Assembly (NCBI GenBank): GCA_051362555.1 | Contig: CM120646.1 | Location: 18,414,001-18,478,000 of the forward strand | DNA: 64,000 bases | Origin: Lingula anatina | Lineage: Eukaryota; Animalia; Brachiopoda | Direction: 5' to 3' | Shown here: positions 4,392 through 62,962 of the stretch, in pieces | Numbering within the stretch: position 1 is the stretch's first letter | Layout: every line of letters begins with the position of its first letter | Notes under the pieces: generated by a model | Seen by the model: the letters and a program-made list of their open reading frames with translations, nothing else | Database searches by the model: none | Told to the model about the DNA's origin: nothing | Translations under genes and position numbers: made by a program

Positions 4392-4437
<46 letters not shown>

Positions 4438-32949: not shown

Positions 32950-33357
32950 GTAGCCTTGGCAGCATTTTTCCTCATCTAAAGCACCTGGTGTACAGAGAAA
33001 TGAACAATCAAAATCTCATATCAAACTATTTGAGGTGGATTACTGAAGTGCATGCTTGCAACACAAAAAGCAACTGAGTTAAAAGAGAAGCTACATCTAG
33101 ACAGGAAAGCAATCGGAAGAATGTTAACAAGCTAGGTACAGCAAGAATTTCAATTCTAACTCAAGAAAAATATGAAAGCTCTACAACTAAAAAGGATTTA
33201 ACAAGTAAAGCAAATAGTTGAAATAGCAGAGCTCTGTTAGAGAAAAGGACAAGAAGTTGTTGTTATGAGTTGTTTGTTTCTCCAGCTCCCTTAAGGAGAA
33301 CAATTTAAGGCAAGGATATGATAGCATGACCCTGTCTCCCACCCTTTGCCTGCTAAC

Positions 33358-36962: not shown

Positions 36963-37880
36963 TTAACCAAAAAGAGCACTAAGACCAAAACTGCTGCCCT
37001 TAGCACATTTAGGATTGTACAGCTTCACAACTTGGTTGTAGGCAAACGAATACACGTTGCAACATATTGTCCACGGCTGGGGGAAAACGTAAGTTGAACT
37101 CGTGACGGATCGGCATTCAGGCGCAGTTTTAAAGAAGGCTAAAATTCGTCGACCAGGGGGTGGAAATGTTTTCTCTGCGTTCTCGCACATGACTTGCCCC
37201 CGGGGTTTCTTCATGCCTCCGCTGGACACTAAATCACCGAGGGTCGACGCGTTCGATCCAAGCGCTAGCCTTGCCAAGCGTTCACAGTCCGTGGGGCACT
37301 GTTGTAATACACTGACGCACACATCCGTCGTGCTGGGACTGGCCTTGTTCATCTGACGCCGCTTTTTAGTTTGGAAGAACTGTGGATAGACATCCGTAAC
37401 TCTAACGATTTTGTTGCCGTCATCGAGAGAGAGGTCATTTTGACGTTGCCCATAAAGGAGGTCCGGGAGCTGAAGAAGCAGTGGCCCCGGTGTGGTGCCT
37501 CGGTCTTCAGCATGAAGACTACATTGGCACCTGTAAGTAAAAGTAAAATTAAGAGAACTGAGCGAAGAAAAAATGGCTTCTCTAGTAAAGTAAAGTAGAA
37601 ATTTATCATCTTCCTTGTACCAGTAACATGTTTTTTTCCACATAGTTATATATATTCTGTATATACATGTAATTTTACTTCGATTTTTTATTTGCATATT
37701 TTAGCAGAGCAACATTGCCTCCAGCAATAAATGTATTCACAGGATTTCATGTTTTTATGGTGCTGATATACCACTTCAGTACAGAAAATATATAAATGAT
37801 GCGCTTTAGTTGGCGTTGGCAGGGGCGGATCCAGGATTATTTGAAGGGCCCCAAAAACTTTGGTATTTTTATGGGGCGAA

Positions 37881-37921
<41 letters not shown>

Positions 37922-39847: not shown

Positions 39848-41003
39848 ATCGCGATCTCCAGTCTTTATCGCTTGGCTAATAGGAATCAAGTGCGCTATTT
39901 GTGAACTAGTCTTAAAATACAGGTGCAATTCATACGCCTACGCACTAAGAAGGGCACGCGCGTCTTATGACCTGTTTGCTGGGGTTATCGGGGGGGGGGG
40001 GTAGGAAACTAGACGTAATAAATAAATAACCCATTCAATTATAATGATACTGTTATTCATTGAGATAAATATCCATTGACCAGTTTATATAGTATATTTA
40101 ATTAACTTACTTATCAGCTTAGTCATTGGTTTAAAAAGGTAGGTTCTTAGTGAAATAAAAAAAAATAGTCCATATTTGTCTGTTATTGGATTCCAAAAAA
40201 GTGCAGCTTTTAATGATAAAAAAATACAGAATTGACAGATGCCCATTTTGCTTTGGAATCTACATATAGAAGAAAGCGACACGGCCAGATAATGTGATCG
40301 ACTCTACTCCAGCGCCATCAAATACTGGTACTGTGACCGTAAGACTAGAAGACCGCAGTACAAGATCTTAATTTGTAGAATTGGCGTCCTTAATGCATTG
40401 CAGAAGATGATATTTAACATGGATAAAAGTGTATAAATTGATTGACTACAAAGTGCGAACAGCGCCACGTGTTTTCCGACCTCGTGACCTTGCTATGGAG
40501 GTGAGGCGATCACGAACTTAGAATATCACCAAAGGATTTCAGCACACTATAAAATAAGTATGCTATCACGAATTTGCCTGCTTAGTCGAATTCCCTCAAA
40601 AATAAGCATTTAATTTTTTGAGATCATAATTCAAGACGGCCCTGCACTTAGATTTGATATTTTACACCTTTTTTGATGGAATAATTTAGTCCTAAATGGT
40701 TGGTCAGTCATCGTGTTGTCTTTTCGTACAATCCCTGTGCAGTTAAGGAGGAAATATCGACATCAGGATTTTTGTTTGAGGGTTCTTACTCTTAAAAAAA
40801 ATCTAAATTGGAACACATGAGAACCGGTGGCACCGCAGGATGAGTAAACATAGAAAATACGATTATTGAAAAAACACAAGTCATTGTCTTTGATAAATAA
40901 CACAAATAGCGCTATAAATTTTGCAAGAACTTTACTATTTCAACTGTGAACATTACAGCGATTTCACAAATACCTTACACAAGGCATTAGTTTCCCGTTT
41001 TTC

Positions 41004-44000
41004 TCAACCAAAGATGGTGCTAATGTCCATGTTGGGGCTACATTTCTCATTGAACACATTGTACGCCTGGTTGGTGAAAGGTAAGGTGAACTTTTTGCAA
41101 CAAATGGTGGTATTATCTGGGAAAATATGCGTGGAACTGCCTGAGAAACCATAGGCAGGTGCCGTCTTGTAGAAGGCCACAATCCGGCTTCCAGGGGGAG
41201 GAATGGTCACCCCGGCGTTCTCACACATGACTTGGCCCAAGGGTTTCAGCACACCACCATTGCTTATTTTGGTGGTCAGGGGCATGGACGAAAGTTTTAA
41301 CTTGGCCAGTCGTTCACAGTCCACTGGACATCTCTGTAGCACGTTGAAGCACTCGGGTGAGGTGCCAGGGGTCACACTGATTGAAGGCAATATCTGGCGG
41401 CGTTTCTTGGTAGTAAAGAACTGTGGATACAAGTCCGTGACCTTCTTTTTCTGGTTCCCTTCATCTACCCATACGTCGTAGTAGCCTCGTCCGTAGATGA
41501 GGTCTGGAAGTTGATAGAGCAACGGTCCTGCTTTGGTAGATCCTTTCACTTCAGCATGGAGACTGCAGAGGCATCTTAAAAGAAATGAAAAATAATGCAA
41601 TGTTAATCACCCTCAATTTCCCCTAGTGCATGTTATAAATGCCAAGAAAAAGCCGTTTAGCCGTATTCAGCTAGTTACATGCCAGTGCGTAGTAGAATAT
41701 GCATTGTTCTGTACCTACTCCCTTGCTGTAAATGGTGATCTCTGCAAACGACCATAATTTAGAATTTTTCATGAAAGGGACTGTTATACAGTTACATCTA
41801 TAAAGCACAATACTGATGCGAGCAGCCGTTGTGAAAATTCCAGCTTTTCATTTCTCAGATCCAAAAGAGAAACGAAGAAATTTAAAGCTTAGGAGTTTGA
41901 AAAATGGAAAACCAAGTTAAAACCTCTATTACGCACGAAGTCCAAAAAAGGGACGGAATTAATAGTTTTATTTACGACGATTGGAAAATCGGACGTTCTC
42001 TCTCTGTGCAGCGCAAAAATTCGGAAATGACAACAGAATCGAATTAGATTTTTCTAATCAATTTCATAAATTCATTCAATCAAATACTTTTTGCTCTTCA
42101 ATCCTGTATTTTATAGCCACATGGACAATCTTTAGGATGGTTTATCCTCAGAAAAAATATATCGCCATGTGGTGCTGGTGTATATTCTAGCTGTGTTTCA
42201 ATCACCCCTCATTGATAACAATACAGATTGGGATATTCAATGTACATGTAATAGATCGTGAATTGTTTCTAAATTTCATCCCTGTAGTGCAAGGCTTGGC
42301 TATCTAATATCTGTTTAATTTCTATTAAACTTAAGCCTCTGTGAAATAATAATAATAATAATCTTCAGGTTGCAGATATTTAATTTGCAGATATTTAGTA
42401 ATTAGGTAAAAGCTTTTATACTTTTACTGTTAGTAAGCAGTCACGGCCAAAGAGATAGCAACGAAATTATAACCATAACAATAACAAGACTCGCTTTCAA
42501 AAAGTTTTGTGACTCATTGATGTTCACAATTAAAAAAATATATTTAAAATTGTTTGAACAAATTATACCTTATTGTACCGTGTTCGTTCAGTAATTGAAC
42601 GTGATCAGAAATCGCGGACACTTCCCTTTTGCAAACCATTTTTAAAATAAAAAAAAAACTAGATGAAAATTGTTCCTTTACTTACTTTTCAGTAGGCATT
42701 CCGCTCGCCAGAGCTACAATAAATGAACAGATTAATGAAAGAACTAACCCATCAATTAATTTATTAATCAAAAGATAAAATGAAAAAGATAATACAATTT
42801 TTCCAAAAATATACCCGTCAAAATATACAGCTACGAAAACAAAAAAAAAATGATTATGATATTAAAAGTGAATTAAAAATGTTTTTTCAAAGATATATTC
42901 AACAGGACACTAAGAATTAACTGTTTACTACATTAAAACAAACATTGGTTAAAGATATCAAAGTCACGTGAACAATTTTAATTTTGCTTTACAACAGAAT
43001 GCCTGGGGAATACCAGTATAAGGATCATGGTTTTCACAAATGCATTTTCTAATTAATGCCTGTTTCAACACAAGAAAGGGCTGGATGTTTTTTTTTTTTT
43101 TCGACATATAACACATGACACTTAATTAAATAAAGAAATAAATGAATAAAAAGAGTGTAACTGTTGTAGTGGAATACAAAACACCTCGAAGAGCATTGAA
43201 ATATTGAAAACGCAAGGTAAAACTACATATTCTTTTTTTCGTGTGTTGCTAATCAAAATGATTTAAACTCAAGTACGCGTGTGCATATAATCTACTTTGC
43301 CATACCTCCATAACATTCCATTGGTTTTACAATTAAATATACATCTTCATTCGTTTCATCTAGATCATAAATCTGCACCCTCTTCACCGGTAGGTAGCGC
43401 TTATCGTCAAGATATCCTTCGTCATTTCGCCACACGCGGTCATTCATTCGACAATTACAGGTACTGTATGTAAAACGTAAAGAAATATAAAATAGTATTA
43501 CCTGTGAGATAAGATGATTATATGTCTGTCAGTTATAAGACTTATTAACTGACAAACAAAAAAGAACTCAGTCGAATTACCATTTAAAATGACTAATATG
43601 AATTACGAGAAAAATCGCCGTAAAGACTACATTCATGGACTTTGTACATATAGCAGCAACTAGATGGGTTCTACAAAAATCATCAAAAATCATCAAAAAT
43701 TATAAATATATTTCCCGAAGTCGCCATGAAATCAATGTGCCGTTTACCTTGAACCGTCACAGGAATTTTGCATTGCGCATGCGCATTTAGAGCTATTTGT
43801 CGGGGCACCTCCCCAGTTGGTCATGTTCCATCCTTGTCGGGAAACCCACCAAGTTCTCGAGTAGAAAGTTTCAGCCCCAAAACATGAAAACCGAACGAAC
43901 TGTCGACACTTGCCAGATATACGAGTTAGACTTTCAAGTTGCTGAACCGTGGGTCTGTAATCAAATGAAACGTATCGTAAAAGTTCACCTGGACCTTGAT

Positions 44001-45633
44001 AATGCTGCGTCTGTGGTACAATACCACCTGCGTGAGGCACTAAAGTGACGCCGTGGCCAGGTAAGTCATCTCTGGTTGTACAGGTAACTTGAAAGGCGTC
44101 GACTCCCCCTGCACCGTCAGGGTCAATGGTATATACACCTTCCCCGAATACGGTACCGGCATAATGGCTCAAAACGTCTTCGCAGGATTTGGGAACTAGA
44201 AGAAAATTAACGTAGCGCTTAGCAGTAACCGGAAGACAATCAGTGAGAAAAAGTAGATATCTGATTTATGAAATGATAGATACTTCAAATTACAATTTGA
44301 ATCACCAATGAAAAAGTGCCAATGCGCAAGGTTTTTTTGGTCACATTTACTGAAACAATAGACCAAACCCTACAGTGTTATCACAATAGTTATCTTTGAA
44401 TGTTCTTCTTGATTAAAATATTTTAAGTTCTCTTTTGAACAGTTTGTATTAAATGCTTGAAGGCCTATCAATACTCACTCCCGTTAGCTGCCTCGTGCTG
44501 CACTGAAATTTAAAAGAAAAACATGTTTGTAATGTTCTAACTAGTTCGATGCTTTCTGAATGGCGATGACAACGCAAGGAGGTTTATGACTATTTGCTGC
44601 CTATTTATATTGGGTTGTATGTCCACGACTAAGAACGACGCCACACAGTAAGGATTGACTAAGGCAAAACAAAACAGCTGTGAAGTTAATTAAAAGAACA
44701 CGGAAAAAAATGACGATATCATTTTCTCCAAAAATATAGCCGCCAGAATGTAGGCATACAGTTACAAACAAATAAAATAAAAAAAAAAAATTAAAAAACA
44801 AAGAAAATAAAAAAAACACACACACAAAAAAAAAAAACATTTTCAAAGATATGTTCAATAGGACAGTAAAACTGATTATTTACTTCAGCAGTACGAAAAC
44901 GTTATTTAAGAACTAATCAAGTGGGCATTTTTACTCTACAACAGGTATTTAAGGTTCGCCTTAGTTGTACATGTATTCACAGGTGCGTTTGCTAATTCAT
45001 GACTTTTTCAACATATAAAAGGGATGGGTATTTTTCTCGACATGTAACACATGATACTTTAATAAATAAATAAATAAATGAAAAGAGTCGTGGAATACAA
45101 AACATCTCGAAGAGCAATGAAATATTGAAGTCACAAGCTTATACTCGGGCGGATTGAAGCCGTCTTCTAGGTCTTCCGGACGACGGTCAGGTTTTCAAGT
45201 TTACATGACGGGTATTTAATGTCTTCTGTCAAAAGACGGTCAAAATGGATCTCTGGATCCGCCCTTGAAGAAACATATCCTTTTTTGAGTGTTTCTTAAC
45301 AAAATGATTACTAAAGTTTGTGCGTGCATATAATCTACTTTGTCATACCTCCATAACATTCCATTGGCTTCACCATCAAATAAATCTCTTCATTACTACC
45401 ATCTAGATCAATAATCTGCACCTTTTTCACCGGTAGAAAGCGCTTATCATCAAGATATCCTTCGTCATTTCGCCACACGTAGTCATTGATTTGGCAATTA
45501 CAGTTACTGCATATAGAACAAACAAAATATCAAATAGTTTTACATGAAAATTATAAGTTGTGCTTTCACATTCACTGATGATTTGCTTCCTTAATACAAT
45601 CTCAATGTGAAACAACGTAATTAAGGTGAATTA

Positions 45634-45669
<36 letters not shown>

Positions 45670-46427
45670 GTAAGCAACTACATATAAGCATCTTTTATAA
45701 GTACCATATAAGTACCAAATCCTCAAAATTGTAAGTGCGTTTCTCAGATACATCCACAAACCAAATGGTCACTTACGTGTACTTATTTGATCTGTCACAA
45801 TTATTTTGCATTCCGCATGCGCACTTAGAGCTGTTAGTCGGAGCACCTCCCCAGTTGGTCATGTCCCATCCTTGCCGGGAAACCCACCAAGATGGCGAGT
45901 CGAAATTATGAGCTTCATAACATGAAAATCGAACGAACTGTCGACATTTGCCAGATATACCCGTTAGACTTTCAAGTTGCTCTTCTGTTACTTTGTAATC
46001 AAATGAAGTGTACCGGGTATAATTTCCTGGGCCTTCATAATGCCGCGGCTGTGGCACGGTACCACCCTCATGAGGTACTAAGGTGACACCGTGGCCAGGT
46101 AAGTCATCTCTAGTAGTACAGGTGACCTGGAAGGAGTCCACTCCCCCTGCACCGTCAGGGTCGATGGTGTATACACCTTCCTTGAATACAGTACCGGAAT
46201 AATGGCTCAAAACATCCTCACAGGATCTTGGCACTACAAAAAAATTAATAACAGTTACTGTAGGGATTGCAGGTTATTCAAGATGGTATTGCATTAATTA
46301 ATGAAGTTGTTTTATTCATTGTTTGTACCAAATGCCCGCAGGCGTCTCAGTACTCACCTCCGTTACCTGCCGCGTAGTGCATAGGAATAAGAAAGAAAAT
46401 CGTGAGCAATATGTTCAAACTAGCCAT
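41004..46427 (-). CDS. Array units C+B: probable fused gene, signal-FBG-FBG-linker-Cys-rich domain, ~629 aa
   Basis: Unit C exons 46427-46358 (MASLNILLTIFFLIPMHYAAGNG), 46233-45777 and 45506-45349 have no linker or C-domain of their own. Unit B exons 44195-43748, 43463-43306, 42713-42686 and 41574-41004 are intact but lack a functional signal exon. The phase-1 donor after 45349 fits the phase-1 acceptor at 44195; total 1890 nt, open throughout. The individual exons are well supported; the fusion is inferred. Confidence 0.65.
44479..44550 (-). pseudogene. Disabled signal-peptide exon of unit B
   Basis: Aligns with the signal exons of C and E (..ISVQHEAANG). The ATG is lost (TCGAACTA[ATGGC..] in E versus TCGAACTAGTTAG in B) and two in-frame stops (TAG, TAA) are present. 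Confidence 0.8.
45144..45267. mobile_element. Short MITE-like insertion (GGGCGGAT...ATCCGCCC)
   Basis: Inverted ends. The insertion is absent from the paralogous intron position in unit B (~43210-43230), which serves as an empty site. Confidence 0.65.
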
Positions 46428-47129
46428 AAATCCAATGAGTAGCTAAATGGCGTTGGCTATGCAATGGAAATTAACTCCATTAACTGAGTTGATTACTGCT
46501 GCCCTTGATAAAGGGGTGCATATATATGCTCACGACTGAGAACGATGCCATGTGTTTTTTTTTTTTTTTCACATCAGGTGGGCTGTCTTATCGAAAAAGA
46601 AGACTGTTAAGACTGACTTAGACAACAGCAAAACAGATATGCAAACCAAGACCATTTCCACAAATAAAATAGAAGCACAACCAACTTTTTGAAGCAACCT
46701 TTAATTATTAATTACACTCCAATAAATCTTACGAACAATGACGATTTTTGCTTGGTAGAAGGCAGGGGCATTCTAAAATTGTTGCGTTTAATTTATCAAT
46801 TAATTAATTTTTGAGAGTTGCATGGCTCTGCTGTGCTATTTCATTTATGTCCAAAGTCAGAGAATGTGGCATCTAGAAGTGCTAAGTATCCCAATACTTA
46901 ATTCAGCAGTTGACAGTCACAAACTTATGTGTTCCGCCCCGCTTAATTGATATTTCGAAAAGAACTTATTTTAGGCTCTTAAAAGAAAAAAGTTTATAAA
47001 ACCGTTATTTATTTTCTTTGAAAACAACACAGTCAGACAGCTTGACTGAAAACCATGTAGAAATTGAAATCAATCGCTTATTTTGCAGTTGTCTCCCATA
47101 TTATGAACTTCATTGTCTCGTATTGTTTT

Positions 47130-47173
<44 letters not shown>

Positions 47174-48167
47174 TGAAATCTTTATGCGAACATAAAACTG
47201 TCCATAGGACGGCAACCCAAAATTTAAATCTGTATATTTGACATCATAATTCAAGTATGTAGGCTCAGACGATGATATATACATTGATTAAAGTGTAAAA
47301 CCTAAGTAATAAAGAGTGCGAAAAGCGCCACGTGTTTTCTGACCTAGTAAACTTGCAATTGGTATCGAGGAGAGGCGATCACGTTTTTGAAATATCACCA
47401 ACGGCCTGAAAAAGATTTCTGTACGCTATAAAGTAAACACTTAGAAGTTTTCTATCAGCTGTTTTCCAGCCAAATCGAATTGTCTTCCAACAAACGCGAC
47501 TTTCTTTTCTACTGCCCACGAAACAATAATCCACGGGCCTTGCACTTAGATTCGATGTTTATTCCATATCTGATCGAATAATTTAGTTTTTAATGACTGG
47601 TCTGACCGTCAGTCACATAAACCGTGATGTCTTCCTGTGCGTTAAGGAGGAAATATTAACATCAGGTACTTTTTTAGGGTTCTTACTGTATTTTAAGCCT
47701 GGAATGTAACATAAGTACTGGTAACGTTGCAGGATTATGAGGCAGAAAGTTTTGTTTTGACATTCAAACGCGTACAGTGTACCTTTGGATAATCATGGTG
47801 AATTCTTTTCGTGTTAATATCACCTTAGTTAATAAGTCATGCAAATAAATTTATAAGGGTTATAAATTAAGTTGTTGAGCTTGTACACGGAGCGTAATAT
47901 TAAAACGCTTTCAGGCTCTGAAGAAAAATTCATTTACACATCAATAAGTGCGAGATGGTACACTTTTTTTTGTCTAGTCAGTCAGTTTGTCAGTTTAGTG
48001 CACGTTAGACGTACATGTGCGATCATTCATAAAAATGCAAGAAAACTTTGGTACGAGAAAGTAACACAAACACCAATATATAATTTAAGAGCAATTTCAT
48101 ATTGCAACTGTAAACATTGCAGTTATTTCCAAATAGCATAGTCAAAATTATTCATTTCCAGTTTTTC

Positions 48168-51149
48168 TCAACCAAAGATGGTGCTGATGTCCACATTGGG
48201 GCTACATTTTTCATTGAACACGTTGAACGGCTGTCTGCTGAAAGGCAAGATGAACTCTTTGCAGCAAATGCTCGTATCATCTGGGTGGAAATACGTGGAA
48301 CTGCCAGAGGAATCACAGCCAGGCGCAGTCTTGTAGAAGGCCACAATCCGGCTTCCAGGGGGAGGAATGGTCACCCCGGCGTTCTCACACATCACTTGAC
48401 CCAAGGCCTTTTGGACGCCAGCATTCGTTATATTTGTGGACAAGGACATGGAGGCAAATTTCAATTTGGCAAGTCGTTCACAGTCCACTGGACAGTTTTG
48501 TAACACGCGGACACAGTCCGGTGATTTGTTGTGAGCCACACTGGAAGGCAATATTTGGCGGCGTATCCTGGTTTTAAAGAACTGTGGATACACGTCGGTG
48601 ACCTTCTTTTTCTGGTTGCCGTCATCTATCCATACGTCGTTGTGGCCTTGTCCATAGATGAGATCTGGGAGTTGATAGAGTAATGGACCCGCTTTTGTAG
48701 ACCCTTTCACTTCGGCGTGGAGACTGCAGAAGCACCTTAAAGAAAATATGGAAGCGCCATATTTATTACTATATCAATTCTTAACCCCATATCAAAGGGA
48801 TGTCTCACTGTACATGTACACTGTGTGTAGCTAACGCCAATGAGAAAGCTGCGAAGCCAGCATATGCCGCAAGCTAGATTATGATGAAAAAAATGACGAA
48901 TTTAAAAGTCTTGTTTATGATGGATGGGACTGTCGATGTCTTTCCCTCTGTACATCTTTGAAATTTATAATTGTAAGAGAAAATAAAAACAAACGATATC
49001 ATTAATTGACATTTGTAGTATTTTTCTTGAAATTGATGCTCTGATTTGAAATGTATAACCATATGAACAATATTTAGAGCGCTGATCAAGACGTTTCATC
49101 AGCGGAGGATATTAATAAATAAAATTACTAATTTCTTAGTGTTTTGTATTAAATTTAGAAAGTGATTGAAGGTTTTGCCGTAGTTTAGTGTATGTTATCA
49201 GGCTTGAAGCGTTTAATAAAAACATGTAGGCTGCAAATAGTTCCATTGTATCAAATGATTCTCAATCGCTAACTATCCAATGCAGGAGCGATAAATACTC
49301 CTACATTCTGCGTAAAAAAGTAAATGCAATTTATGTAAGTTAAACGTTCTTACTTTTCGGTAGGCTGTCCGCTCGTCACAACTAAAAATAAATGAATGAC
49401 TTTATTAAAAAAAATAAAATAAAAGGGAGAGAAATGATACGAAAAACAACTCTTTACAAATACCTTCGTCAGTACCTTCAAAATGGCTAATTGTCAAGGT
49501 TAAAGTACATATCCTATTTTAAAGTGTAGCTGACATGTTTAACCAACGATAGCGCACGGAATTTTGTACTTTGTGATACCTCCGTAACATTCCATCGGCT
49601 TCACCGTTAAGTATACTTCTTCATGACTGTTATCTACATCACGAACCGGTACCTGCTTCACCGGTAGATAGCGCTTATCGTCAAGATATCCCGCGTCCAC
49701 TCTCCACATTCCATCATCTCGGTGGCAGTTACACTGGTCACTGAAAGAAAGAAAACAATTCAGCTCGCCACACCGCGTCATTGATTTTGCAGTCACGTGT
49801 ACCGAATGTTGAACAAACTATAATATACAACTGACTTTGGCTGAACCCGCGCATTCTACGTGAAATTCAAGGCTGAAAATAGTTCAAACGGTCTTCTCAG
49901 TAGACCGCCTGAAATCTCCGAGCGGTTAACGCAACGTGGTCAACTATATCTTAGAAAAAAAATTATTATTCGTCTGTAACCAGATGAATCGTAAGTACGG
50001 TACTAGATTGAAAAAAAAAAATACACTAATGTGAAACGCTCCTTAATGACTAACATACGAAATATTATTGTTCCTTAGCAATGTAATCTTTTCACATTTT
50101 TGGTTAAAACCCTAGATATCTTGTCCATCAGGCATAATAACAACTGAATGAGAAAAACCAAATGAAAAACTATTTGAGATGGTGGACTACTACAAGTTTA
50201 GTAATTAGAAAACAGGACGAGGCCGTCAGTTGCGAAAATGCCAAATTCACCGCTTCTTTTGACAATTGACATTAATTTCAAACAAATAAATGGCCTGTGA
50301 AACAAGTCAAACCTGTCCCTCATTCATGCTTTGTTTCACAATTGTCTTATCAATTGTTTTATCATAATAAATAACCAATGTGTGCGTCATATTTATTAAC
50401 AAATCAATGTGTCACTTTAGGAGCATCTTACTTTGACATGTCACAGCGATTCTGTATTGCGCACCCGCATTTAGAGCTGTTAGTCGGGGCACCTCCCCAG
50501 TTGGCCATGTTCCATCCTTGTCGGGAAACCCACCAAGGGTTCGTGTGGAAATTCCAAGCATCATGACATGAAAGTTGAACGAATTGGCGACATTTACCAG
50601 ATATACGAGTTAGACTGTCAAGCTGATCTTTTGTGAGTCCGTAATCAAATGAAGCGTATTGTTGGAAAAGTCCTGGACCTTGGTAACGCTTCGGCTGTGA
50701 CACGATACCACCTGCGTGAGGCACTAAAGTGACGCCGTGGCCAGGTAAGTCGTCTCTAGTTGTACAGGTGACCTGAAACGCGTCCACTCCCCCTGCACCG
50801 TCAGGGTCGATGGTGTGCACCCCTTCCTTAAATACAGTACCTCTGTACTGACGCACAACGTCCTCGCAGGATCTGGGAACTGGAAGAAGAATGCAAGACA
50901 CTGAACCACCAAGCAGAAATTAATCGACAAAAAATCGCCGGTGAACTCTGTGACATTATTCAAACTTAAAATAACAAATTGTTTGTATTTGTAGATATTG
51001 TGAAAAAGTTGAATTTCTTTATAGATGCAATTATTTTGTGTTGCGTAAAATTTGTGCGGAATAGAATAGGCCTACATACCTCCCGTACCCACTACTGCGT
51101 TAACTGAAAGAAAACAGAAAAACAAGACCGAAATCTTCAAGCAAGCCAT
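48168..51149 (-). CDS. Array unit D: secreted FBG-like + Cys-rich domain protein, ~424 aa
   Basis: Exons 51149-51080 (MACLKISVLFFCFLSVNAVVGTG), 50879-50432, 49740-49580, 49381-49354 and 48735-48168; GT-AG junctions, open frame of 1275 nt. Confidence 0.87.
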
Positions 51150-51452
51150 ATTGACAGCGCTGGACGCTGGCTTAATCGTTACGGTAACGAGGGTTATAAA
51201 ATGCGCTATTTATGAACTAGTATTCAAATAAAGGTGCAATGCGTACACCCACAAATTGAGAACGACACATGCGTTTTATGACCCGACTGTGCAAGGTTAT
51301 CGGCAGGAAAAAAGCACCTGCAGGAAACAGACGCAGAAAATAAAAATAATCATTTAATCATTTATAAAACCGTTGTTCATTGAAATGTAATTTCAGTGAT
51401 CAGTCTTTGCAAGATACCTTATTAACCTATTAATCAACTTAATCAGTATTCT

Positions 51453-51491
<39 letters not shown>

Positions 51492-51632
51492 AAATCCCAG
51501 AGAGGTACGGCCATCGTTTCATATTTAAAAAAAAAAAAAAGATATTTGATGGGATATTTTTTACTTTCTTTCTCTAATAAAAATATCCATCGGTAGGCTC
51601 ATTTGGATAAGTAAGCAATTGTGCGTGCAGCC

Positions 51633-51915
51633 ACATGCAATGGACAATAGAAGTGTCATCCCTACTGGACCAATACTTTGGGGGAGATAAATGACTGTGG
51701 AATTAAATACTCATGGTATCATTTTATTAACATCAAATTTTACCAAAAAAAAAAAAAAAAAAAATACAATTTCATAAAAAAATAATTAAAAAATTAAAAA
51801 AAAAAACAATTCCATGGTACAGCGGTTTTACATTATAAGTAGACCAGGCATTATAACTACTCAAGATCTGCCTACTTTAATTACTCGGGTGACACTTCTA
51901 TTGTCCATTGCGTGT
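51633..51915. mobile_element. MITE-like element with ~28-bp terminal inverted repeats
   Basis: TGCAATGGACAATAGAAGTGTCATCC (51636-51661) is inverted against GGGTGACACTTCTATTGTCCATTGCG (51887-51912); the interior is AT-rich and non-coding. Confidence 0.7.
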
Positions 51916-52934
51916 ATACAATGGGAATGACATTGATGCTTATACAATGCGTGCGCATTACTGCGTCATTTATGGAAATGGAGGGACGGATAAATAGATC
52001 AATTTACGGCCAAAAATTTGAAGAATTTGGTTTATGAATTGGTATGTTGACTTTATTTTAAGAAACTTATGGTAGTGGTTGATATTTGTAAATGGGAATC
52101 CACGCTCCCTTTGTTTGTCTTTAAACCATGGAAAAGATTTATTTAACCAAGTGGACGATTAATTAAATCAATGTAATGGTAAATGGAAAGGAAGGATCAA
52201 TTATTCAATCGTGAAAACTATTTATTTATTTATTAAATCGATGGTACGATTTATAAATCGTGCCGACAGATTAAAATTATTTTTATAGGTGGACTTTTTG
52301 GGCCACCATATCATCAAGTGCTGCTTACTATAAGAGGAATGCGATGCACGTTTTGAACCTGTACATTCGATTTCCACAAAACAAATGTGTACAGGAAATA
52401 GAATTCAAGCCAAAAAGTACTGATATACACTGGTAAGTGTGCGTAAAATCCATGATGTACTACAAAGTGAGAAAGGCACCTCGTGTTTTTTGACCTCGTA
52501 ACCTAGCTATCAAGGTGAGACGTTCACGCGTGATTTAAGGGCTTGGGTTTTATGAACGTTTTGAAAAAGATCTAGACACTTAAAGAAACACTCTTGAATA
52601 AATTCTTTCTACGTTAAAAATCATAAATTCAAGTCATAAATAACTGATATTAGTATCCTATGTACGTTACATGTAATGGTATTTTTGTCAACACTGGAGA
52701 ATGATACGTTGTTTTGTCATTCTCTGAAGAAACATTTTGTTGGCAGAATAATGCGTGCAAGACCAAATTTTCCCCCGTTGTTTAGTAGATTGTGCGATTT
52801 ATGCAAAAAGATAAAGGTCAGCGCCTTTAAAAAGTAACACAAACACGGATATAAATTTTGCAAGAACTTTACTATTACAACTGTGAACATTACAGTAATT
52901 TCACAAATACCTTACACAAGGCATTTATTTCCAG

Positions 52935-55900
52935 TTATCCTGAAGCCAAGATCGTGTTGAGGTCAACATTGTAGACACATTTCTCATTGAAATAGTTGTA
53001 CGGCTGGTTGGTGAAAGGCAAGGTGAACACGTTGCAGCAAATCGTTGTATTACCTGCGAAGAGGTGCGTGGAACTGCCAGAGAAACCACAGGCAGGCGCA
53101 GTCTTGTAGAAGACCACAATACGGCTTCCAGGGGGAGGTATTGTCACCCCGGCATTCTCACACATCATTTGACCCAAGGGTTTTTGGACGGTCATCTGGG
53201 TGGACAGGCGCATGGGCGAAAGTCTCAACTTGGCCAGTCGTTCACAGTCCACTGGACAGCTCTGTAACGCGTGAAAGCACTCTGGTGAGATGCCAGTGGC
53301 CACACTGATGGAAGGCAATAACTGGCGGCGCTTCCTGGTATTAAAGAACTGTGGATATACTTCGATGACCTTCTTTTTCTGGTTGCCGTCTTCTATCCAT
53401 ACATCGTTATGGCCTTGTCCATAGATGAGATCTGGGAGTTCATAGAGTAATGGACCCGCTTTGGTAGAGCCTTTCACTTCGGCGTGGAGACTGCAGAGGC
53501 ATCTTAAAAGAGAAAACGCAATGTTATTCACTCGATTTTTACCTCCACCTTGAATGAAAAGAATCATTTAATATTTTTCCGGCGGTTGGATGAGCAGATT
53601 TCCTCCCCAGCATGCAACTCCAAACTTAATTCAGAAATGTACAACGGAATATAAACAACAACTTTCAGCACGCAGTCACTTAAAAAAGTGAAACCATGGC
53701 AACAGAGCGTTCAGGTTATTTTGTTTGGGGACATGTTTCCATACCAAACTTATGTGATAAATTTCATATCGTACGGAACCTTTTAAGAACAGGTAAAGCA
53801 AATGCAGTATAAACATGTATATATGTGTGTGTTATACGCAATACGCAGTCAGGTTTGCATCTTTGAAATTCATATACATGTACTAGTGCACATGCAAGTA
53901 AAATGCACTTACTTTTCAGTAGGTGGTCCGCTCACCATATCTACACAGACACATAGAAAAAATACACAATGAATGAAGTAAAGAATAACAAATTATTTGA
54001 AAAAGAGCGGCATGAAATTTGTGGAAATATCAATCAAAACCTTTAAACTACATCATACTATGGTACATGTAATATGGTAAATATATGTAGAACCGATTTC
54101 TAACACAATATTACATTTACTACATTGTGGTTCCAACTTTTAGTTCAAGTCGAAAACCTAGAAAAGATTGCTCGAAGGTAAGAAGTCTAAAAGACCATTA
54201 TTGAGGTCTTTCAATACAATAAAATACCTGCCTCTCAACTTGAAAGACAAAACTTCCCTGAGAACAGCTAAGTTCGCAGCGCAATGAATGATGGATTCTC
54301 AAATTTAACGCATTACAAATTGTTGCCAAAAAGTTTAACCTAGTTTGTGTGTGCATTGTATCTTTTGTGATACCTCCGTAACATTCCATCGGCTTCACCA
54401 TTAAAAATGTCTCTTCACCATCATCATCAAGATCATCCATCGGTACTTGCTTCACCGGTAGATAGCGCTTATCGTCAAGATATCCTTCGTCATTTCGCAG
54501 TAGGTAGTCATTCAATTTGGAATTACAGTCCCTGTATATAGAACAAACAAAATAATTAACCACTACTAACTGTTAAATAAAACATGTTTATCATATGACA
54601 TATATTGACGATACGTTTAGATATTTGTCAACTATTTATTATTATTATTATTATTAACTAGACACCAAAGATAGGAAGTTAACAGCAAATTAACAGCAAA
54701 AAAGTTGCGACAATTTTAATAACAAAGAGTAAAAAATGTCAATAACTTTTTTAATTTATTAAAATTAATTCTATCAACCTGGTTTCCTAAAGAAACCTAC
54801 AAAGTCACTCAATAAATTTGAAGTGTAGCATTTGAGCGAGCGTCGTCAAAATACATGATGAAAAGAATAAGAAAAAAGATAAGATAATCAATAACGTTCA
54901 TAAAAATAATTCGATCATGCTTACTTTCGAAATAAATTGGTATTATGGACATACAAAGCCAGTCGGCAAATTTGAAGTAAAACAGAAATACGGTTTGGCA
55001 CCTATTGGGCTAACATCGCCAAAATACATGAAAAAAAAATCCCGTAAAAATCAATAACGTTTAAAAAATACACTGTTACAACAGCAACGGTCGATCTTGG
55101 GAAGCACAGAAAATTCACGCGCCCTAGCTTAGAAGATAATCCGCCTTCTCTACACTCCTATCCCCAAAAAGAACATAATGATAAAACAGCAAATAAAAAC
55201 AGTAAAAATAAAGCAAAACCAAACTATTTTCCTTGCTATACCTATACGTTATGATTAAAAAAATGTCCAGAGAACAAATCTTGGATACGTCAGTTCACTG
55301 CACTGTATATATACAAAAAACTGTGTGAAACTTGCCAACATTATTCCCAACTTAAAGTTATTAGAACATCAAGAACTGTTAAATAAATGCACTTTTCAGA
55401 TACATCAACAAATCGGCAAGCCACATGGGTCTGAGCGTTATCTTACATGTTCTCTCCATCACATCGATCCTGCATCGCGCATGCACATTTAGAGCTGTTT
55501 GTAGGGGCACCTCCCCAATTGGTCATGTTCCATCCTTGCCGGGAAACCCACCAAGGACTTTTTAAGAAATTCTCTGAATGAATTGTTGAAAGTCGAACAT
55601 ATTGGCGGCATTTGCCAGAAATACGGGTTAGACTGTCAAGCTGCTCTTCGGTGGGTTTGTAATAAAAAAAAGCGTATCGTGAACGTTCACCTGGACCTTG
55701 ATAATGCTGTGGCAGTGGCTCAACACCAAATTGGTGAGGAACTAAGGTGACACCGTGCCCAGGTATATCATCTCTGGTTGTACAGGTGACCTGGAAGGGG
55801 TCCACTCCTCCTGCGCCGTCAGGGTCGATGGTGTATACACCTTCTTTGAACACGGTGCCGGCATAATGGCCCAAAACATCCTCGCAGGACCTGGGAACTA

Positions 55901-56248
55901 AGAGTTTAGACAAATTTTAGCAGTAACCGGACAGCACTAAGAAAATTCTTTCCCGTTTTAACAAATGATGTAGCTTTTTTGAATCACAAATCAGACAGCT
56001 ATTGTAAATATTTACATTGGCCACATGTACTGATGCAATTGACAAACTGATTCATTGTGAAAAAAATTATATATTATTATATTTTGAAATATTTTAAAAA
56101 TGCGGATTCGCTACTCAGTTTTAAAACTTTAAAGTTGCATTGCACAAGTTTTTACTGAAAGCTTGTACACCTACGTACCTTCATTAGCCGCCACGTATTG
56201 CACTGAAACAAGAAAGAAAACCCCGTGCAAAATGTTTAGATTTGCCAT
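52935..56248 (-). CDS. Array unit E: secreted FBG-like + Cys-rich domain protein, ~424 aa
   Basis: Exons 56248-56179 (MANLNILHGVFFLVSVQYVAANE), 55897-55447, 54531-54374, 53940-53913 and 53502-52935; GT-AG junctions, open frame of 1275 nt. Confidence 0.87.
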
Positions 56249-57002: not shown

Positions 57003-57177
57003 GGGGGCCGTAGCGATAGTCCGAAGGTTCAATAGTCCGAAGGTTCATTGGTCCGAAAGTTCACTATAGAACCTTCGGACCAATGAACCCTTGATTAAAA
57101 AATCGATGAAAATGTTACCACTTTTCGGACCAATGAACCTTCGGACCAATGAACCTTCGGACTATCGAGACGCCCCC
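57003..57177. mobile_element. MITE with long repeat-built TIRs and a 7-9 bp target-site duplication
   Basis: The left arm of ATAGTCCGAAGGTTCA-type repeats is inverted against the right arm of TGAACCTTCGGACCAA/CTAT repeats. CCAATAAAA flanks both sides (56994-57002 and 57176-57184). A 9-bp TSD would be Mutator-like (inference). Confidence 0.8.
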
Positions 57178-58547
57178 AATAAAAGTAGGGCCTACCTGAT
57201 GTTGATATTTCCTTTCTAAAATGTACAGGAGGACATGATGGCGAAATTATCGGGTCCAAGCACAGGAAACGTTTTTTTAAGAAGAGAAAAAAACCGGATT
57301 GTTGGGGAAAACCCGGATTGAATACTCGCGACCTTTGCTGACCACTTAAAGTTACATATGAAGTCAAATCTTTCCAGCTAAACCCCGCTTAATACCAAAT
57401 AACGTAACTGAAAGGAATACTTATAAGGGTATCGTCTCATTCTTCCCGAAAAATGGTATTTGAACAGACATGAACTGCTTTCTTGTTGTGTTAAATACAT
57501 GTTTAACGCTCGGTCATTTTCGCCAGCCTTCGTTTTAAAACATGTCTTCATGCCATTGTTAGCGCAACGATGCGTCATACATGAAGTTCTACATCATTTG
57601 GCGGACTTCACGAACTGGCAGCGCGAATAAATTCCAGTAGGCCAAATTTACGACCACTAATAAATACAATAGGCCAAGTTTACGAGCAGTCGTTGCAGTT
57701 TTACAGCTATTTTTTGCTGACTGAGTGACTCATTTGGCTTGTTCTTCGGTATGTCGACTTCCTTCGAGTCGTAAAATAACTAGTTGAAGTGGTTGATATG
57801 CTTTACAGGGAATGTTCACTAGCGCCAAATGTACCTTAAAACCCTTAAAACCTTTACTCCAGGTAGAACAAAAGTTCCGTTATAAGGGACGCAGTTATAG
57901 TTTTCAATGGTCTCATTGAGTATCCATGTTTAAATGACCTACTTTTAAAACCGTGATGTGAATTGATTTTAGTGCATTATTTACGCAGCAGACGGGGGGC
58001 CGGAGGTGAAAAGTTAGGGGTGCTAAAACTGATAGAGAAGAAATTAAATGTCAGCAAGCCTTACAACTTTAAATCATATGCTTAATCAAGCTGAAAAAAT
58101 CTCAATCAACTTCAAATGTAGGAAACGTCTCGCAGACCCTGTTAGCCCTGTACTTGATAGCAGAGTGAAGAGGTTCAAGGTTAAAAAACATGAAATTAGG
58201 TCATTTTGTCAAATGGTCTTGTTAATCTTGTGTTTTGATGGCCTACTTTTATAATCGAGGAGTAATTTACAGAAGACTAGTCCATTATGCACTCAGCAGA
58301 AGGCAAAAGGTTTACATGTTTTTTAAAGGAGCCCAGGGATACACCCCGCGACCGTCCGACCGGTGTGCATAGAAGGAAGTACCAAGCCTTCGAACGTTCT
58401 ACAAAGTGGAAAATTGTAAGTTAACCTGAAATGGATGACCATTCTTGGAAATACACTGTACTGTCTGTCCTACGTTTGAGCCACTAGCTGCATTCAATAG
58501 GCCTTATATCTGTGACAGTAAACCGAACGAGTTATCAACGATCAAAC

Positions 58548-60598
58548 ATGTCTTCGTTGAGAGTAGCCGTAGTTGTATACTTTCACGCTGTTCTTATTGT
58601 CGGTTTGTATCTGAAACGCTATGAGAAAGTAAATGTGGTCTCTGCTGGCGAAACCGACTACAGACAACGTCTTCCCGCATTTCTCCATTCTTTTCCCTCA
58701 TTACTCCGACCAACCATTTGCGTCGTATTGTCCCTGTGGACTGTCCTCAAGATTGTGTCCCCACCCAGGGACACGCTCATGGGCTGCATAGCGCAGTTTT
58801 TTCCAAAGGAACTTCGGGTGTTTGTTATACCATACATGGCTTGGTTTCTTAGCACTATAGAACCCCAACTGAATTTGGAACAGTATTCGCGCTATATTAA
58901 AAAACTGGATCAACAAATACCAGAGTTCTCTTGGGTACAGACAGTAGGGTATTATTTTGTGAAAAGTTCCTATTTGCCGATCTTCTACTACGGCGTCGTT
59001 ATCACAGGAACAATCATGTCAAATTGCAAAATAATGCAAAACCAGAGAACTTGGTTAAGAACCGCAGGGCTGCTGACACTGACTTTTGCAGATATTTTTC
59101 TCGTATATTGGTTTTTCTTCGAAAGTGCACACCCAGAAATTATAGGAACATTATCGATTTTCGTGTTCATTTCTGCCACCCCAGTCGTCGTCTATCAAAT
59201 GCAGGTCACACAGCAAATGCGCGTTTTCCTACTCGGTGGCCTTTTCACATTGTCAAGCATGATGTATCAAGAAATTTGGAGGTATCGTCTGCTCGAGCCG
59301 AACCTAAACCTGGTATCATCCGGGCACTTAGTCATTTTGTTGTACATATGTGAGCACATGAACAAGGACGGATTAGACCTATATTTGCAAACTTACAAGC
59401 GCCTTCCCAAATATCTCCCGGCTCCAAACAGAATTGCAAGCATCATTGTTCTGCTAACAATTTCAAAACTCAGACTTGCATACAATATCGTGGAACTACT
59501 TCTCGAACCCCTCATTTACTGGACCCACTTGGCCCCCAAAACGTTCGTGACAACAGTTGGGTTTTTCCAAACTTCCATCAATTTTCTTTCTTTCCATTAT
59601 AAATATATCATCCCACATGTAGCTGTTTTAGTAGATTTGCTATTCATTTATCAAGTTTTTGAGATATCCAGCATCTTTTCACCATTTTATCGGCTTTTTC
59701 GGGACAACTACGACGATTGGTATGTGTTTGAGTCCTGGAAGACGCAGACAGAATGGAAAATTATGAGAGCCTGGCTCATGACAATTTGCTACACGATCGT
59801 TTCATTCGGCCTGCATCTCGGTGTGAATTTTATACTTTTAGACTTCGTGACACTGGAGGTATGCTTAATAGCAATTCGCCATGGACTAACGAAACCCGAT
59901 TTCGAAGAAGATGAAGAAGAAGAGGATGCTCTCACTTCAACAGCTCTTGCAACCGAAACGGAAGACCCGACCACAGGTGATACAGCCGACGAAGAAGACG
60001 CGATTCCTGTAGATGATGACGAAGACAAGACCACTATAGAAGAAATAGACCAGCTTTCAGAAAAACAGTTCTCTGACAAAGCGGTTCAAACGAGAAGTGA
60101 GTTAACATATTAATGACATACGGGCAGTGTTTGTCCCACGAATGCGGAAACTTATTTTGTTTAAGTAATAATTTGCTGAGTGTGTTTGTTTGGTAACACA
60201 AGTTAGATTCCTTCAGAAAACAGCAAGATCAGATTACATTTGTTTAGTTATACCGGTAGTTTACTAGAGAATTGTTGCCTAGTATAATAGTAATGTTGCT
60301 GCTGAATAAGAAAATGTCCAAATGAGTGTCTCCGATCCTACGGTTCGTGTGTACAAATTTGAGAGGTAAAGGCGCTTTAAGCTGTAGCCACTGTCCTCAT
60401 GTTCAAAATTTCATTTCAGCCAGGAGACGAAGACGAACATCGCAGCACAGTCGAAAAAAGGGAAACGAACTGTCACCAAGAGTTAAAATTAACAACGTGT
60501 TTGGTTACTTCTTCCGCGGCGGTAACATCCAAGTTGGTAATCAGAACCGCATGGAGGTGTATCACACTGAAGAAGATGAGGAGAATGCACGTGCGTGA
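58548..60598 (+). CDS. Multi-pass membrane protein with an acidic cytoplasmic-type tail and a spliced C-terminal RHIM-like motif, ~575 aa (521 aa if unspliced)
   Basis: The first ATG at 58548 (AAACATGT) opens a long exon with many hydrophobic segments followed by a D/E-rich tail. A consensus donor A|GTGAGT (60096/60097) and an acceptor TTTCATTTCAG| (60419/60420) join in frame to TRRRRRTSQHSRKKGNELSPRVKINNVFGYFFRGGNIQVGNQNRMEVYHTEEDEENARA*. Family not recognised. Confidence 0.75.
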
Positions 60599-62341
60599 CG
60601 TCACAGGGCATTGAACGTGACGTCATCTAAGTCAATTTACTGATGCTGCTGAGTTTAGTTAACGAATGATTTTAGATTTTTGTTACATATTGGGGTGGGG
60701 GGAGGGGTGCAGCAATATTCATAACTAGAAGCAAATTTCGTCGGTAGTGATGTAGTGATTCATGAATTCATGTATTTTACTATTTAGGATTATTATTGTC
60801 CATACTTGTCAGTGATCAATTTTTCAGCAAGTATTACCGTTTTTTTCCAAATAAGAAATATTTCCCGGTATGATATACATAAAACACAAATTTATTTTAA
60901 AATTAAAAAAAAAAAAAACTTTGCACGAAAACTTGCCACATATAAAATGCAATATTGATATATAGGACGTTCAAAACGAATTATCGACCTATATAAATAT
61001 ATTTGAATAAAATAAAACATAATTTGGACATAATCGCATTAGTTTACTCCATGCCTTGGATTTTTCTAAGAAAGAACCACTCTGATCAATTATAGATAAA
61101 TACATAAAGTATCATGTTTGCCAGGAAAAATGTAAATATAATCCTGCGAATGGATTTTATAAATAGAAACAAATCAGTTGAAATAAGAAGCTTCTGTTAT
61201 TTCAGTCCTTATCTGCAGATGTAGCGTTTCATTATTGATTTATTTTCTCTTGGTATAACCGGTTGTATGGAGAGAGAGGTTGATTTTCTCGCTTCAATAC
61301 ATGTCCCTTACCGCTCCTTTACGCTCCTTGCCCCCCCCTCCCGAATGCGAGAAATTAAAGGGCAACTCCATGGGTTTACACACTAAAATGGATCTTCCCT
61401 GGGAAATAAGCAAATTTCTCACGCATCATTCATTTTCCCATTCTGTACTTGGATTCGACATTTTATTAAATTAATAAAGGTTGAGTTAGTTGTAAATGAC
61501 TGGCCAGTCATTATAACCAGCTACCATCTTTCTAGGCTTCGATGGAAATATCCACATCAGAAAAAATATTTAATGGGTTATTGTTTTTAAGGTGTATGCA
61601 AGGTTTTATAAGAAGCTGTGGATGGCGAAAATAAGTATTTTGGGGTTTTTTAAACCCATGGAGTGTACCTTTACCTGATGAATTATTTTAAGTCAAATTG
61701 TCAAGATGTTGTATTTTGAATGCATTTATATTTAACGACATATGCCCGATTCAATTATTCTTTATAAATGCTTTATCTACATCAGCACAAAACAATCTGG
61801 TACAGTTTCAATAGCTACCAGAGAAGCATATATAAATGTACACCCCCCCTTTCGTAGGGAATAGCTTCTGAACAATTGTGCAGTTTGAAAAGTGCACTAG
61901 CTAAACAGGATGTTATGTGCCTTAGTGTATCTTGTCTCGTATATTGGGTAAGGTGGGGTGTAGATTCACCATTATTTATTATTTTCTTGATGGGTCCTAC
62001 CAATCGTTTTAATATATTAAAATCGGTGTTTGCAAATGTAACCAGGAATAGTCGTTATTTTACTAATGGCACATTATATACACGGAGCTCACGATATCAT
62101 GACAACTTCTAAGTAAAATGTTTTGAATGCACATATATTATTCTACCCATATATCATTCGCCCTTTGCAAAAGGGGATAAATTATTGTAATATTATGAAT
62201 AAGGTTCCAATTATACAAAACAAAAACAAAATAATTTTTCTTAAGATCATTTACTCAAGTATTGATCACTTAACAGTGGTGCAGGTGATGGCCGGCACAT
62301 TTGCCAAACTCAAACAGACAGAAACCACGGTAACATGGTAA

Positions 62342-62962
62342 TTAGCCACTCAAAACCGTGTTGAGGTCCAGCGTACGGGAGCATTTCTCATTGAACACGT
62401 TGTACACCTGATTGGTGTATGGTAGCCGGAACACAGCGCAGCAAATGGTCGTGTCATCAGAGAAGACGTGCGTGGAACTGTGACCGGAACCGCATGTTGG
62501 TACGGTCTTATAAAAGGCCACGATACGACGCCCAGGGGGAGGCAAGGTCACCTTAGCGTTCTCGCACATGACTTGACCCAGCGGTTTCTGAACTCCTCCC
62601 ACCGATATCTTTGTAGCCAGGGACTTGGATGCAAGATTAAACTTTGCCAGGCGTTCGCAATCCACAGGGCATCTTTGTAACACGTGGGCGCACTCGGAGG
62701 AAGTACCCGGATGGACATTGGTAGATGAGGATGCGTGGCGCCGCTTTTTAGTGCTGAAGAAATTAGCATACACATCGGTGACTCTTCTAGTCCTGATGCC
62801 GTCGTCAATCCATACGTCATTCTTTCCTTGTCCGTAGATAAGGTCGGGAAGCTGGAGAAGCAATGGTCCGGCCGTGGTCTTACTTTTCTCTTCTGCATGA
62901 AGACTGCATTGGCACCTATGGGAAACGTGAAATGGGAAGTACCGGAAAGCATAATTTACTTG

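What the first reader, a model, noticed from the sequence alone, without database searches (positions are those of the whole stretch)
58548..60598. Hidden second exon gives a polytopic membrane protein a C-terminal RHIM-like motif
Seen: the 533-aa ORF looks single-exon, but a consensus donor (A|GTGAGT, 60097) sits 17 nt before its end. A pyrimidine-rich acceptor at 60419/60420 continues in frame into ...VKINNVFGYFFRGGN-IQVG-NQNRMEV... (IQVG at 60527-60538). Established: the RHIM core is (I/V)Q(I/V/L)G, typically followed by xxNx(M/L), as in RIPK1 IQIGAYNYM and RIPK3 VQVGDNNYL. RHIMs nucleate amyloid signalling complexes, and insect PGRP-LC/Imd use cryptic RHIMs. Inference: this may be a multi-TM receptor or effector that presents a RHIM on a long acidic-then-basic disordered tether. 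I do not recognise that architecture. Intron retention would give a RHIM-less isoform, a possible on/off switch.
Basis: partly seen in the sequence, partly recalled or inferred. Interest (0 to 1): 0.85.

Follow-up and report, generated by a model that had tools for sequence, protein, structure and literature searches.

The report
Orphan membrane protein with RHIM-like tail
A gene that likely belongs to a lamp shell (Lingula) is spliced onto a second exon that gives an otherwise unrecognised, predicted multi-pass membrane protein a tail resembling the amyloid-forming RHIM motif of immune signalling, so it likely feeds a membrane signal into an amyloid-type immune or cell-death switch, although no relative was found to test this.

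Summary
The hidden exon is real. RNA reads join 60096 to 60420 (7 reads, in 2 of 6 runs laid), giving a 575-aa protein; the unspliced ORF is 521 aa, not 533. The intron has no read depth, so the proposed intron-retention switch is unsupported. Read differences show purifying selection (pN/pS 0.25) and favour the IQVG frame. The motif matches RIPK1/RIPK3 RHIMs at the core, at Asn +6, Met +8, Val +10 and a hydrophobic -6. It lacks the -4 Asn and has no Pfam hit. About 1-13 such matches are expected by chance per proteome, so I put a working RHIM-type motif at about 0.7. The roughly 11-helix membrane part has no relative in 1.84 billion representatives, so conservation could not be tested. Membrane proteins carrying RHIM or cRHIM motifs are known (insect STING, shrimp SRB2, PGRP-LC, Owenia connexin-like proteins); this membrane domain is not among them. 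New here: the acidic linker holds a DEED/AIPV caspase-plus-IAP-binding-type site, as in Imd (2-4% by chance, noticed post hoc). Most likely a Lingula-specific immune membrane sensor or scaffold; function untested.

The parts
58017..58547 (+). Transcribed region upstream of the ATG (probable 5' leader); 10 upstream ATGs from 58048 on; in-frame stop at 58485
   Evidence: read depth from bin 58017 on, no upstream joint listed; ATG scan
58548..60096 (+). Coding exon 1 (residues 1-516 plus one base)
   Evidence: ORF; reads across it; 12 synonymous and 12 non-synonymous of the 24 listed differences
58557..59888 (+). Predicted multi-pass membrane domain, residues 4-447, about 11 hydrophobic segments, ending in a probable helical hairpin (409-447); no known family
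   Evidence: hydropathy and insertion-energy scans with recalled scales; no family or relative
59889..60077 (+). Acidic, low-complexity linker (residues 448-510), predicted disordered
   Evidence: charge profile
59988..60011 (+). DEED/AIPV: caspase-type site (P1 = D484) followed by a tetrapeptide that fits a published IAP-binding-motif pattern
   Evidence: pattern from PMC12152192
60097..60419 (+). Phase-1 GT-AG intron, 323 nt
   Evidence: 7 junction reads in 2 of 6 runs; depth 0 inside
60420..60598 (+). Coding exon 2 (to residue 575 and stop)
   Evidence: reads; 3 of 3 listed differences synonymous in this frame
60422..60460 (+). Basic Arg/Lys patch (residues 518-530)
   Evidence: 9 K+R and no D/E in residues 516-530
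60509..60559 (+). RHIM-like motif, residues 547-563; core IQVG at 60527-60538 (553-556), N559, M561, V563, F547
   Evidence: against positions printed
60599..61060 (+). 3' UTR; polyadenylation-type hexamers at 60902 and 61006
   Evidence: read depth to about 61060 and 5 of 5 listed indels here; hexamers

Best explanation
This is an expressed, spliced two-exon gene under purifying selection for a 575-residue protein predicted to cross the membrane about eleven times, whose predicted cytosolic, disordered tail ends in a RHIM-like motif that likely nucleates amyloid-type signalling fibrils. Most likely it works as a lineage-specific immune sensor or scaffold. A signal at the membrane domain would cluster the protein (inferred). 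The tethered motifs would then stack in register (inferred from RIPK1/RIPK3, PGRP-LC and SRB2) and recruit a RHIM partner such as the RIPK1-like protein reported in Lingula (inferred), leading to NF-kB activation or cell death. Shown: gene structure, expression, reading frame, motif positions. Predicted: helix count, cytosolic tail. Untested: amyloid formation, partner, ligand.
For: Junction reads and empty intron. 15 synonymous against 12 non-synonymous among 27 listed coding differences, pN/pS 0.25, p=0.0004; no indel listed in the coding part, 5 of 5 in the 3' UTR. In the expressed haplotype the +4 acceptor frame would carry a stop while the IQVG frame has only silent changes. The motif fits the published core (V/I)Q(V/I/L/C)G, the Asn-x-apolar extension, and mouse RIPK1 I522, M536 and V538 by spacing. 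The extended pattern occurs once in 127,996 six-frame codons of the window; chance 6e-4 per 575-aa protein, 6e-5 with the two further positions. It sits in a charged low-complexity tail, as RHIMs do. RIPK1-like proteins with a conserved RHIM are reported in Lingula (PMC12119088). Membrane receptors that signal through a cRHIM are known.
Against: No Pfam family, RHIM included, for exon 2 or 4 further pieces of it, and no PDB sequence match. The Asn at -4 that stabilises RIPK1/RIPK3 fibrils (N535/N454; mouse N524) is Arg549 here. Over a proteome of 1.3e7 residues (assumed size), 13 matches to the first extended pattern and 1.4 to the fuller one are expected by chance, and the fuller pattern was fitted after seeing the sequence. 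No homologue, so no conservation test. Topology rests on rough scales; the second helix of the last hairpin scores weakly (3.5), and a single helix there would put the tail outside. No immune induction data. Reads are mostly 90-99% alike to the window.
Confidence: 0.45

Rival explanations
1. The protein is the executor rather than the sensor: a channel- or pore-type membrane domain that is switched on when an upstream RHIM protein templates its C-terminal motif, like HET-S, HELLP or Bell proteins.
For: In fungal and bacterial systems the executor carries the amyloid motif at its C-terminus behind a membrane-acting domain (PMC7889193). The motif here ends 12 residues before the C-terminus. Connexin-like channels with a RHIM are reported in Owenia. 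No large ectodomain is predicted: the longest loop is 74 aa and there is no N-glycosylation sequon.
Against: Those executors are soluble until activated (recalled), whereas this protein is predicted to be integral. No channel family matched by sequence. SRB2 shows that a C-terminal motif also suits a receptor.
Confidence: 0.2
2. The motif is a chance look-alike in the disordered tail of a fast-evolving, lineage-specific membrane protein (for example a transporter-like or chemosensory protein) with no amyloid role.
For: No Pfam RHIM hit; -4 Asn missing; 1-13 chance matches per proteome; the scan reads very many genes and selects such matches; no homologue.
Against: Five spaced features agree with RIPK1. 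The motif lies in the only strongly beta-prone stretch of exon 2 (residues 537-557 on a recalled Chou-Fasman scale). None of the listed read differences falls in 60485-60594, where X8 depth is about 8 (93 of 133 rows hidden).
Confidence: 0.28
3. The protein is a membrane-anchored decoy that damps RHIM signalling by capturing partners, like Pirk.
For: Pirk uses a cRHIM to inhibit PGRP-LC/Imd fibrils. Arg at -4 and +7 would stack badly in a homo-fibril (charge argument). The protein has no other signalling domain.
Against: Known decoys named in the papers read are soluble or viral; a 450-residue membrane domain under selection is more than a decoy needs.
Confidence: 0.07

Closest known systems
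RHIM of RIPK1/RIPK3/TRIF/ZBP1 (Pfam RHIM family)
   Same: Core tetrad, Asn-x-apolar extension, hydrophobic -6 and disordered flanks.
   Different: Arg in place of the -4 Asn; no Pfam hit; carried by a polytopic membrane protein, not a soluble kinase, adaptor or sensor.
Shrimp SRB2 (PMC10268257, passages), insect STING (review PMC13506858, passages) and Drosophila PGRP-LC (PMC9496462, passages)
   Same: Membrane protein that presents an amyloid motif on a cytosolic part; SRB2 does so on its C-terminal tail.
   Different: Those carry cryptic cores (ARNG, VxxG) and known ligand-binding domains. Here the core is canonical, about 11 helices are predicted and no known domain is present.
Connexin-like (CxL) proteins of Owenia with RHIM, and CxL proteins of Lingula (bioRxiv 10.64898/2026.06.13.731801, section 5 and passages)
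   Same: Multi-pass membrane domain joined to a RHIM in a spiralian; membrane domain often on one exon.
   Different: No connexin match by Pfam or PDB sequence; many more hydrophobic segments than a connexin (four, recalled); 6 scattered Cys. The preprint's Supplementary Table 6 could not be seen.
Insect Imd (PMC6626034 and PMC9496462, passages)
   Same: A caspase-type D/A site that would expose an IAP-binding-type N-terminus upstream of an amyloid motif, with lysines behind it (6).
   Different: Imd is soluble, has the site at its N-terminus (LEKD/A), a cryptic core and a death domain; here there is a DEED site behind a membrane domain and no death domain.

Membership tests
RHIM | Core tetrad (V/I)-Q-(V/I/L/C)-G | tested here: met
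   IQVG 553-556; definition in PMC9444067
RHIM | C-terminal extension Asn-x-apolar | tested here: met
   N559, M561, V563; PMC4262963; mouse RIPK1 M536, V538
RHIM | Hydrophobic first strand, apolar residue at -6 | tested here: met
   F547 against mouse RIPK1 I522
RHIM | Asn at -4 (human RIPK1 N535, RIPK3 N454, mouse RIPK1 N524) | tested here: not met
   R549; numbering. Whether every RHIM needs it was not checked.
RHIM | Match to the Pfam RHIM profile | tested here: not met
   0 families for 5 of 5 exon-2 pieces at E<=10; HMMER filters drop weak matches and no invertebrate RHIM was run as a positive control
RHIM | Flanked by unstructured regions | tested here: met
   acidic 448-510, basic 516-530 and acidic end by composition; disorder is inferred
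RHIM | Motif conserved in orthologues | tested here: inconclusive
   no homologue; one diverged expressed haplotype shows no listed difference in the motif (93 of 133 rows hidden)
RHIM | Cytosolic location of the motif | tested here: inconclusive
   a 37-residue hydrophobic stretch with basic flanks fits a hairpin and an inside tail, on rough scales only
RHIM | Core-dependent amyloid formation and partner binding | not testable with these tools
   needs bench assays
Connexin-like (CxL) domain | Detectable similarity to connexins, with paired Cys in the extracellular loops | tested here: inconclusive
   no Pfam or PDB sequence match, helix count and Cys pattern do not fit; the CxL profile of the preprint could not be run
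Imd-type adaptor | Caspase site followed by an IAP-binding motif | tested here: met
   DEED/AIPV fits the pattern of PMC12152192; chance 2-4% with DxxD, 20-21% with any Asp
Imd-type adaptor | Soluble protein with C-terminal death domain | tested here: not met
   no death domain by Pfam; only 12 residues follow the motif; predicted integral membrane protein

The most novel reading that the evidence does not exclude
A receptor with an Imd built into its tail: a new family of about 11-helix membrane sensors in brachiopods whose tail nucleates RHIM amyloid and is cut by a caspase at DEED/AIPV, releasing a 91-residue fragment that starts with an IAP-binding motif, carries lysines for ubiquitin chains and ends in the RHIM. 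It would supply Imd-type NF-kB signalling in a phylum reported to lack Imd and RHIM-bearing PGRPs.
Probability: 0.12. Interest if true: 0.85.

Novelty: new variant of a known kind. Interest (0 to 1): 0.52.

Why it matters
Molluscs and brachiopods are reported to have the downstream parts of the Imd pathway but neither Imd nor RHIM-bearing PGRP receptors (PMC9835746), while Lingula has a RIPK1-like protein with a RHIM (PMC12119088). What seeds RHIM fibrils in these animals is therefore open. A membrane protein of unknown fold with a canonical-core RHIM-like tail is a direct, cheaply testable candidate. The case also shows that gene callers can cut such motifs off: the ORF looks complete without the exon that carries it.

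Tried and rejected
Intron-retention switch: depth 0 in 60123-60356 in 4 of 4 runs. By my arithmetic, a summed depth of about 10 on the exon-1 side would put some 25 reads there if the intron were kept, so retention is below roughly a tenth in these samples; other tissues or infection were not tested. Alternative acceptor at +4: no joint listed, and a stop in the expressed haplotype. No RNA holder was listed by the index; raw-read runs were laid instead. Homology searches, all blank: word-index search of the ORF, 0 of 7,992 candidates; of exon 2 among longer proteins, 0 of 5; phmmer against 1.84 billion representatives, 0 at E<=0.001; metagenome contigs, 0 of 580 stretches; PDB sequences; Pfam gave only ApoM (E 0.045-0.077) and a primase domain (E 0.2), both below cut-off. 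ESM Atlas gave no answer. Single-sequence AlphaFold2 models had pLDDT 42 and 40, so the fold searches (no match at E<=0.001, best Z 9.5 to unrelated helical repeats) are uninformative. A four-copy complex prediction of the motif gave 'no answer' and is used neither for nor against. An apparent internal repeat in the membrane domain did not beat shuffles (32-93 of 100 shuffles reached the score). No paralogue in the window. A GAS-type site at 58442 is changed in the reads and lies in transcribed sequence, so it was dropped. No whole genome was held, so partners and paralogues elsewhere could not be searched. Earlier notes on this genome hold no 'RHIM', and sequence look-ups found nothing. Not held: Paquette 2010, Kleino 2017, Kleino 2019, Gerdol 2018; Gerdol 2018, the Lingula immune survey, may already list this gene.

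Full report
Observation. The plus-strand ORF 58548-60113 is 521 aa, not 533. A GTGAGT donor starts at 60097, in phase 1, 17 nt before the ORF end, and a pyrimidine-rich acceptor ends at 60419. Joining them gives 575 aa with IQVG at residues 553-556 (60527-60538) and a stop at 60596-60598. An in-frame stop at 58485 bounds the start.

Splicing and expression. Nine RNA runs with the same species label were listed and six were laid. The joint 60096>60420 (GT..AG) is listed in 2 of 6: four reads with four starts in X8 and three reads with three starts in X9. X1 has no depth on the gene; X4, X5 and X7 have depth 0-5 and no listed joint. Depth over 60123-60356 is 0 in 4 of 4 runs, so no retained-intron form is seen. 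No joint to the AG four bases downstream and no upstream exon is listed. Reads run from about 58017 to about 61060. Expression is low (depth under about 10 in 6-30% of each run). None of the 189 reads is 99% alike to the window, so they stem from a diverged allele, population or close paralogue. The window's own splice sites are intact.

Coding signal. One search shows 40 of 133 differences; 27 of those lie in the coding part. Fifteen are silent and twelve are not, against 24% silent sites (pN/pS 0.25, binomial p 0.0004). All three in exon 2 are silent in the IQVG frame. In the +4 frame all three hit second codon positions and one makes a stop. Five of five listed indels are in the 3' UTR. The gene is real and exon 2 is read in the frame claimed.

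Organism and setting. Earlier AI notes on this genome call it Lingula (unchecked). A neighbouring exon finds two RefSeq Lingula anatina proteins among 673 candidates (74% and 54%), and the best copy in the window is 84% identical, which agrees at genus level. The gene lies between two copies of a minus-strand tandem array of those genes (exons at 52944-55898 and 62348-62923).

Protein anatomy. Rough scales with recalled values give about 11 hydrophobic segments in residues 4-447, loops of at most 74 aa, 6 Cys and no N-glycosylation sequon. The last stretch (408-444) is long enough for a hairpin and has basic residues on both sides, which favours a cytosolic tail; the second helix scores weakly. 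The tail is acidic (448-510), then basic (516-530), then beta-prone (537-557), then acidic. The membrane domain has no relative: 0 of 7,992 candidates, 0 among 1.84 billion representatives, 0 of 580 metagenome stretches, none in PDB sequences, and only sub-threshold Pfam rows. The collection searched does hold Lingula RefSeq proteins, so the gene is probably unannotated there or missing from that assembly. Structure models were too poor to use.

The motif. The published core is (V/I)-Q-(V/I/L/C)-G (PMC9444067, passages). Kajava et al. add a conserved Asn, a variable residue and an apolar residue after it, and unstructured flanks (PMC4262963, parts 1-2 of 4 and figure legend). Mouse RIPK1 has I522, N524, I528-Q529-I530, M536 and V538 (PMC11325021, passages). 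Here the matching places are F547, R549, I553-Q554-V555-G556, N559, M561 and V563: all agree but the -4 Asn, which helps to stabilise the human fibril (N535/N454). The core alone occurs 8 times in the window's six frames, the extended pattern once. With recalled background frequencies the extended pattern has a chance of 6e-4 per protein and 13 per assumed proteome of 1.3e7 residues; with the two further positions, chosen after the fact, 6e-5 and 1.4. Pfam gives no RHIM hit on five pieces of exon 2, and PDB sequences none; no positive control was available. I therefore call it RHIM-like, not a family member, and put a working RHIM-type motif at about 0.7.

A second feature. The acidic linker holds DEED/AIPV (residues 481-488, 59988-60011), the only DxxD/[AGS] site of the protein. 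The four residues after the Asp fit a published IAP-binding pattern (PMC12152192, passages). In insect Imd a caspase cut at such a D/A junction exposes an IAP-binding motif, draws DIAP2 and K63 chains, and Imd also carries a cRHIM (PMC6626034 and PMC9496462, passages). In 100,000 shuffles of the tail or of the acidic part, any Asp plus the pattern arises in 20-21%, DxxD plus the pattern in 2-4%, and with Pro at position 3 in 0.2-0.8%. I noticed the site after reading the sequence, so this is a lead only. A cut would free 91 residues with 6 lysines, the basic patch and the motif.

Mechanism. Best supported (0.45): a sensor or scaffold whose clustering stacks the tethered motifs and recruits a RHIM partner. 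A RIPK1-like protein with a conserved RHIM is reported in Lingula (PMC12119088, passages; its supplements were searched only in part, 19 of 31 files not searched, no hit). Rivals: an executor channel switched by templating (0.2; PMC7889193, passages), a chance motif (0.28), a decoy (0.07). Shown: exons, expression, frame, selection, motif positions. Inferred: topology, fibrils, partner, pathway.

Comparison and novelty. Membrane proteins with such motifs are in print: PGRP-LC, shrimp SRB2 with a C-terminal cRHIM, insect STING (review PMC13506858, passages; PMC13241575, one passage) and Owenia connexin-like proteins with a RHIM (preprint, section 5; supplements closed). Spiralian PGRPs with RHIM and, in molluscs and brachiopods, Imd were reported as not found (PMC9835746, passages); sea-cucumber RIPKs lack a RHIM (PMC11507063, passages). 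Ten searches (listings only, except the papers named) showed no protein with this many helices and a canonical core. The Lingula immune survey (Gerdol 2018) was not held. The principle is known and this carrier is not: new variant of a known kind. Interest 0.52, held down by the lack of any homologue or functional evidence and raised by the confirmed hidden exon, the orphan membrane domain and the Imd-like site.

Noticed in passing
window 36966-55916 and 62348-62923, minus strand: Tandem array of about six to seven copies (one partial) of a multi-exon gene like Lingula anatina LOC106177114 (P0001, 425 aa, signal-peptide-like start, no Pfam family); copies 52-84% identical to P0001 per exon. 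The RHIM-like gene sits inside the array on the opposite strand.
   Followed up: partly
window 57004-57177: MITE-like element: 55-nt inverted arms, 91% complementary, with internal 16-nt-period repeats; reads from many other genomic places pile on it.
   Followed up: partly
window 58017-58547: The transcribed region before the start codon holds 10 upstream ATGs with ORFs of 1-68 codons, which could damp translation if it is all 5' leader.
   Followed up: no
window about 14300-34400, minus strand: Multi-exon coiled-coil gene with a WW-domain-like exon near 31914-32240, resembling CEP164 (name recalled, not tested), with a 337-codon Pro-rich open frame at 33353-34366.
   Followed up: no
window 8648-9780, minus strand: Cys-rich exons that look like WAP and TIL-type protease-inhibitor modules (labels recalled, not tested).
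   Followed up: no
window 1-6540, plus strand: Hydrophobic exons resembling a sodium:neurotransmitter symporter (label recalled, not tested).
   Followed up: no
window 58548-60598: RNA reads with the same species label differ from the window at fixed places (0 of 189 reads 99% alike), and the best RefSeq match of a neighbour is only 84%: the window may come from a different lineage of the species complex.
   Followed up: partly
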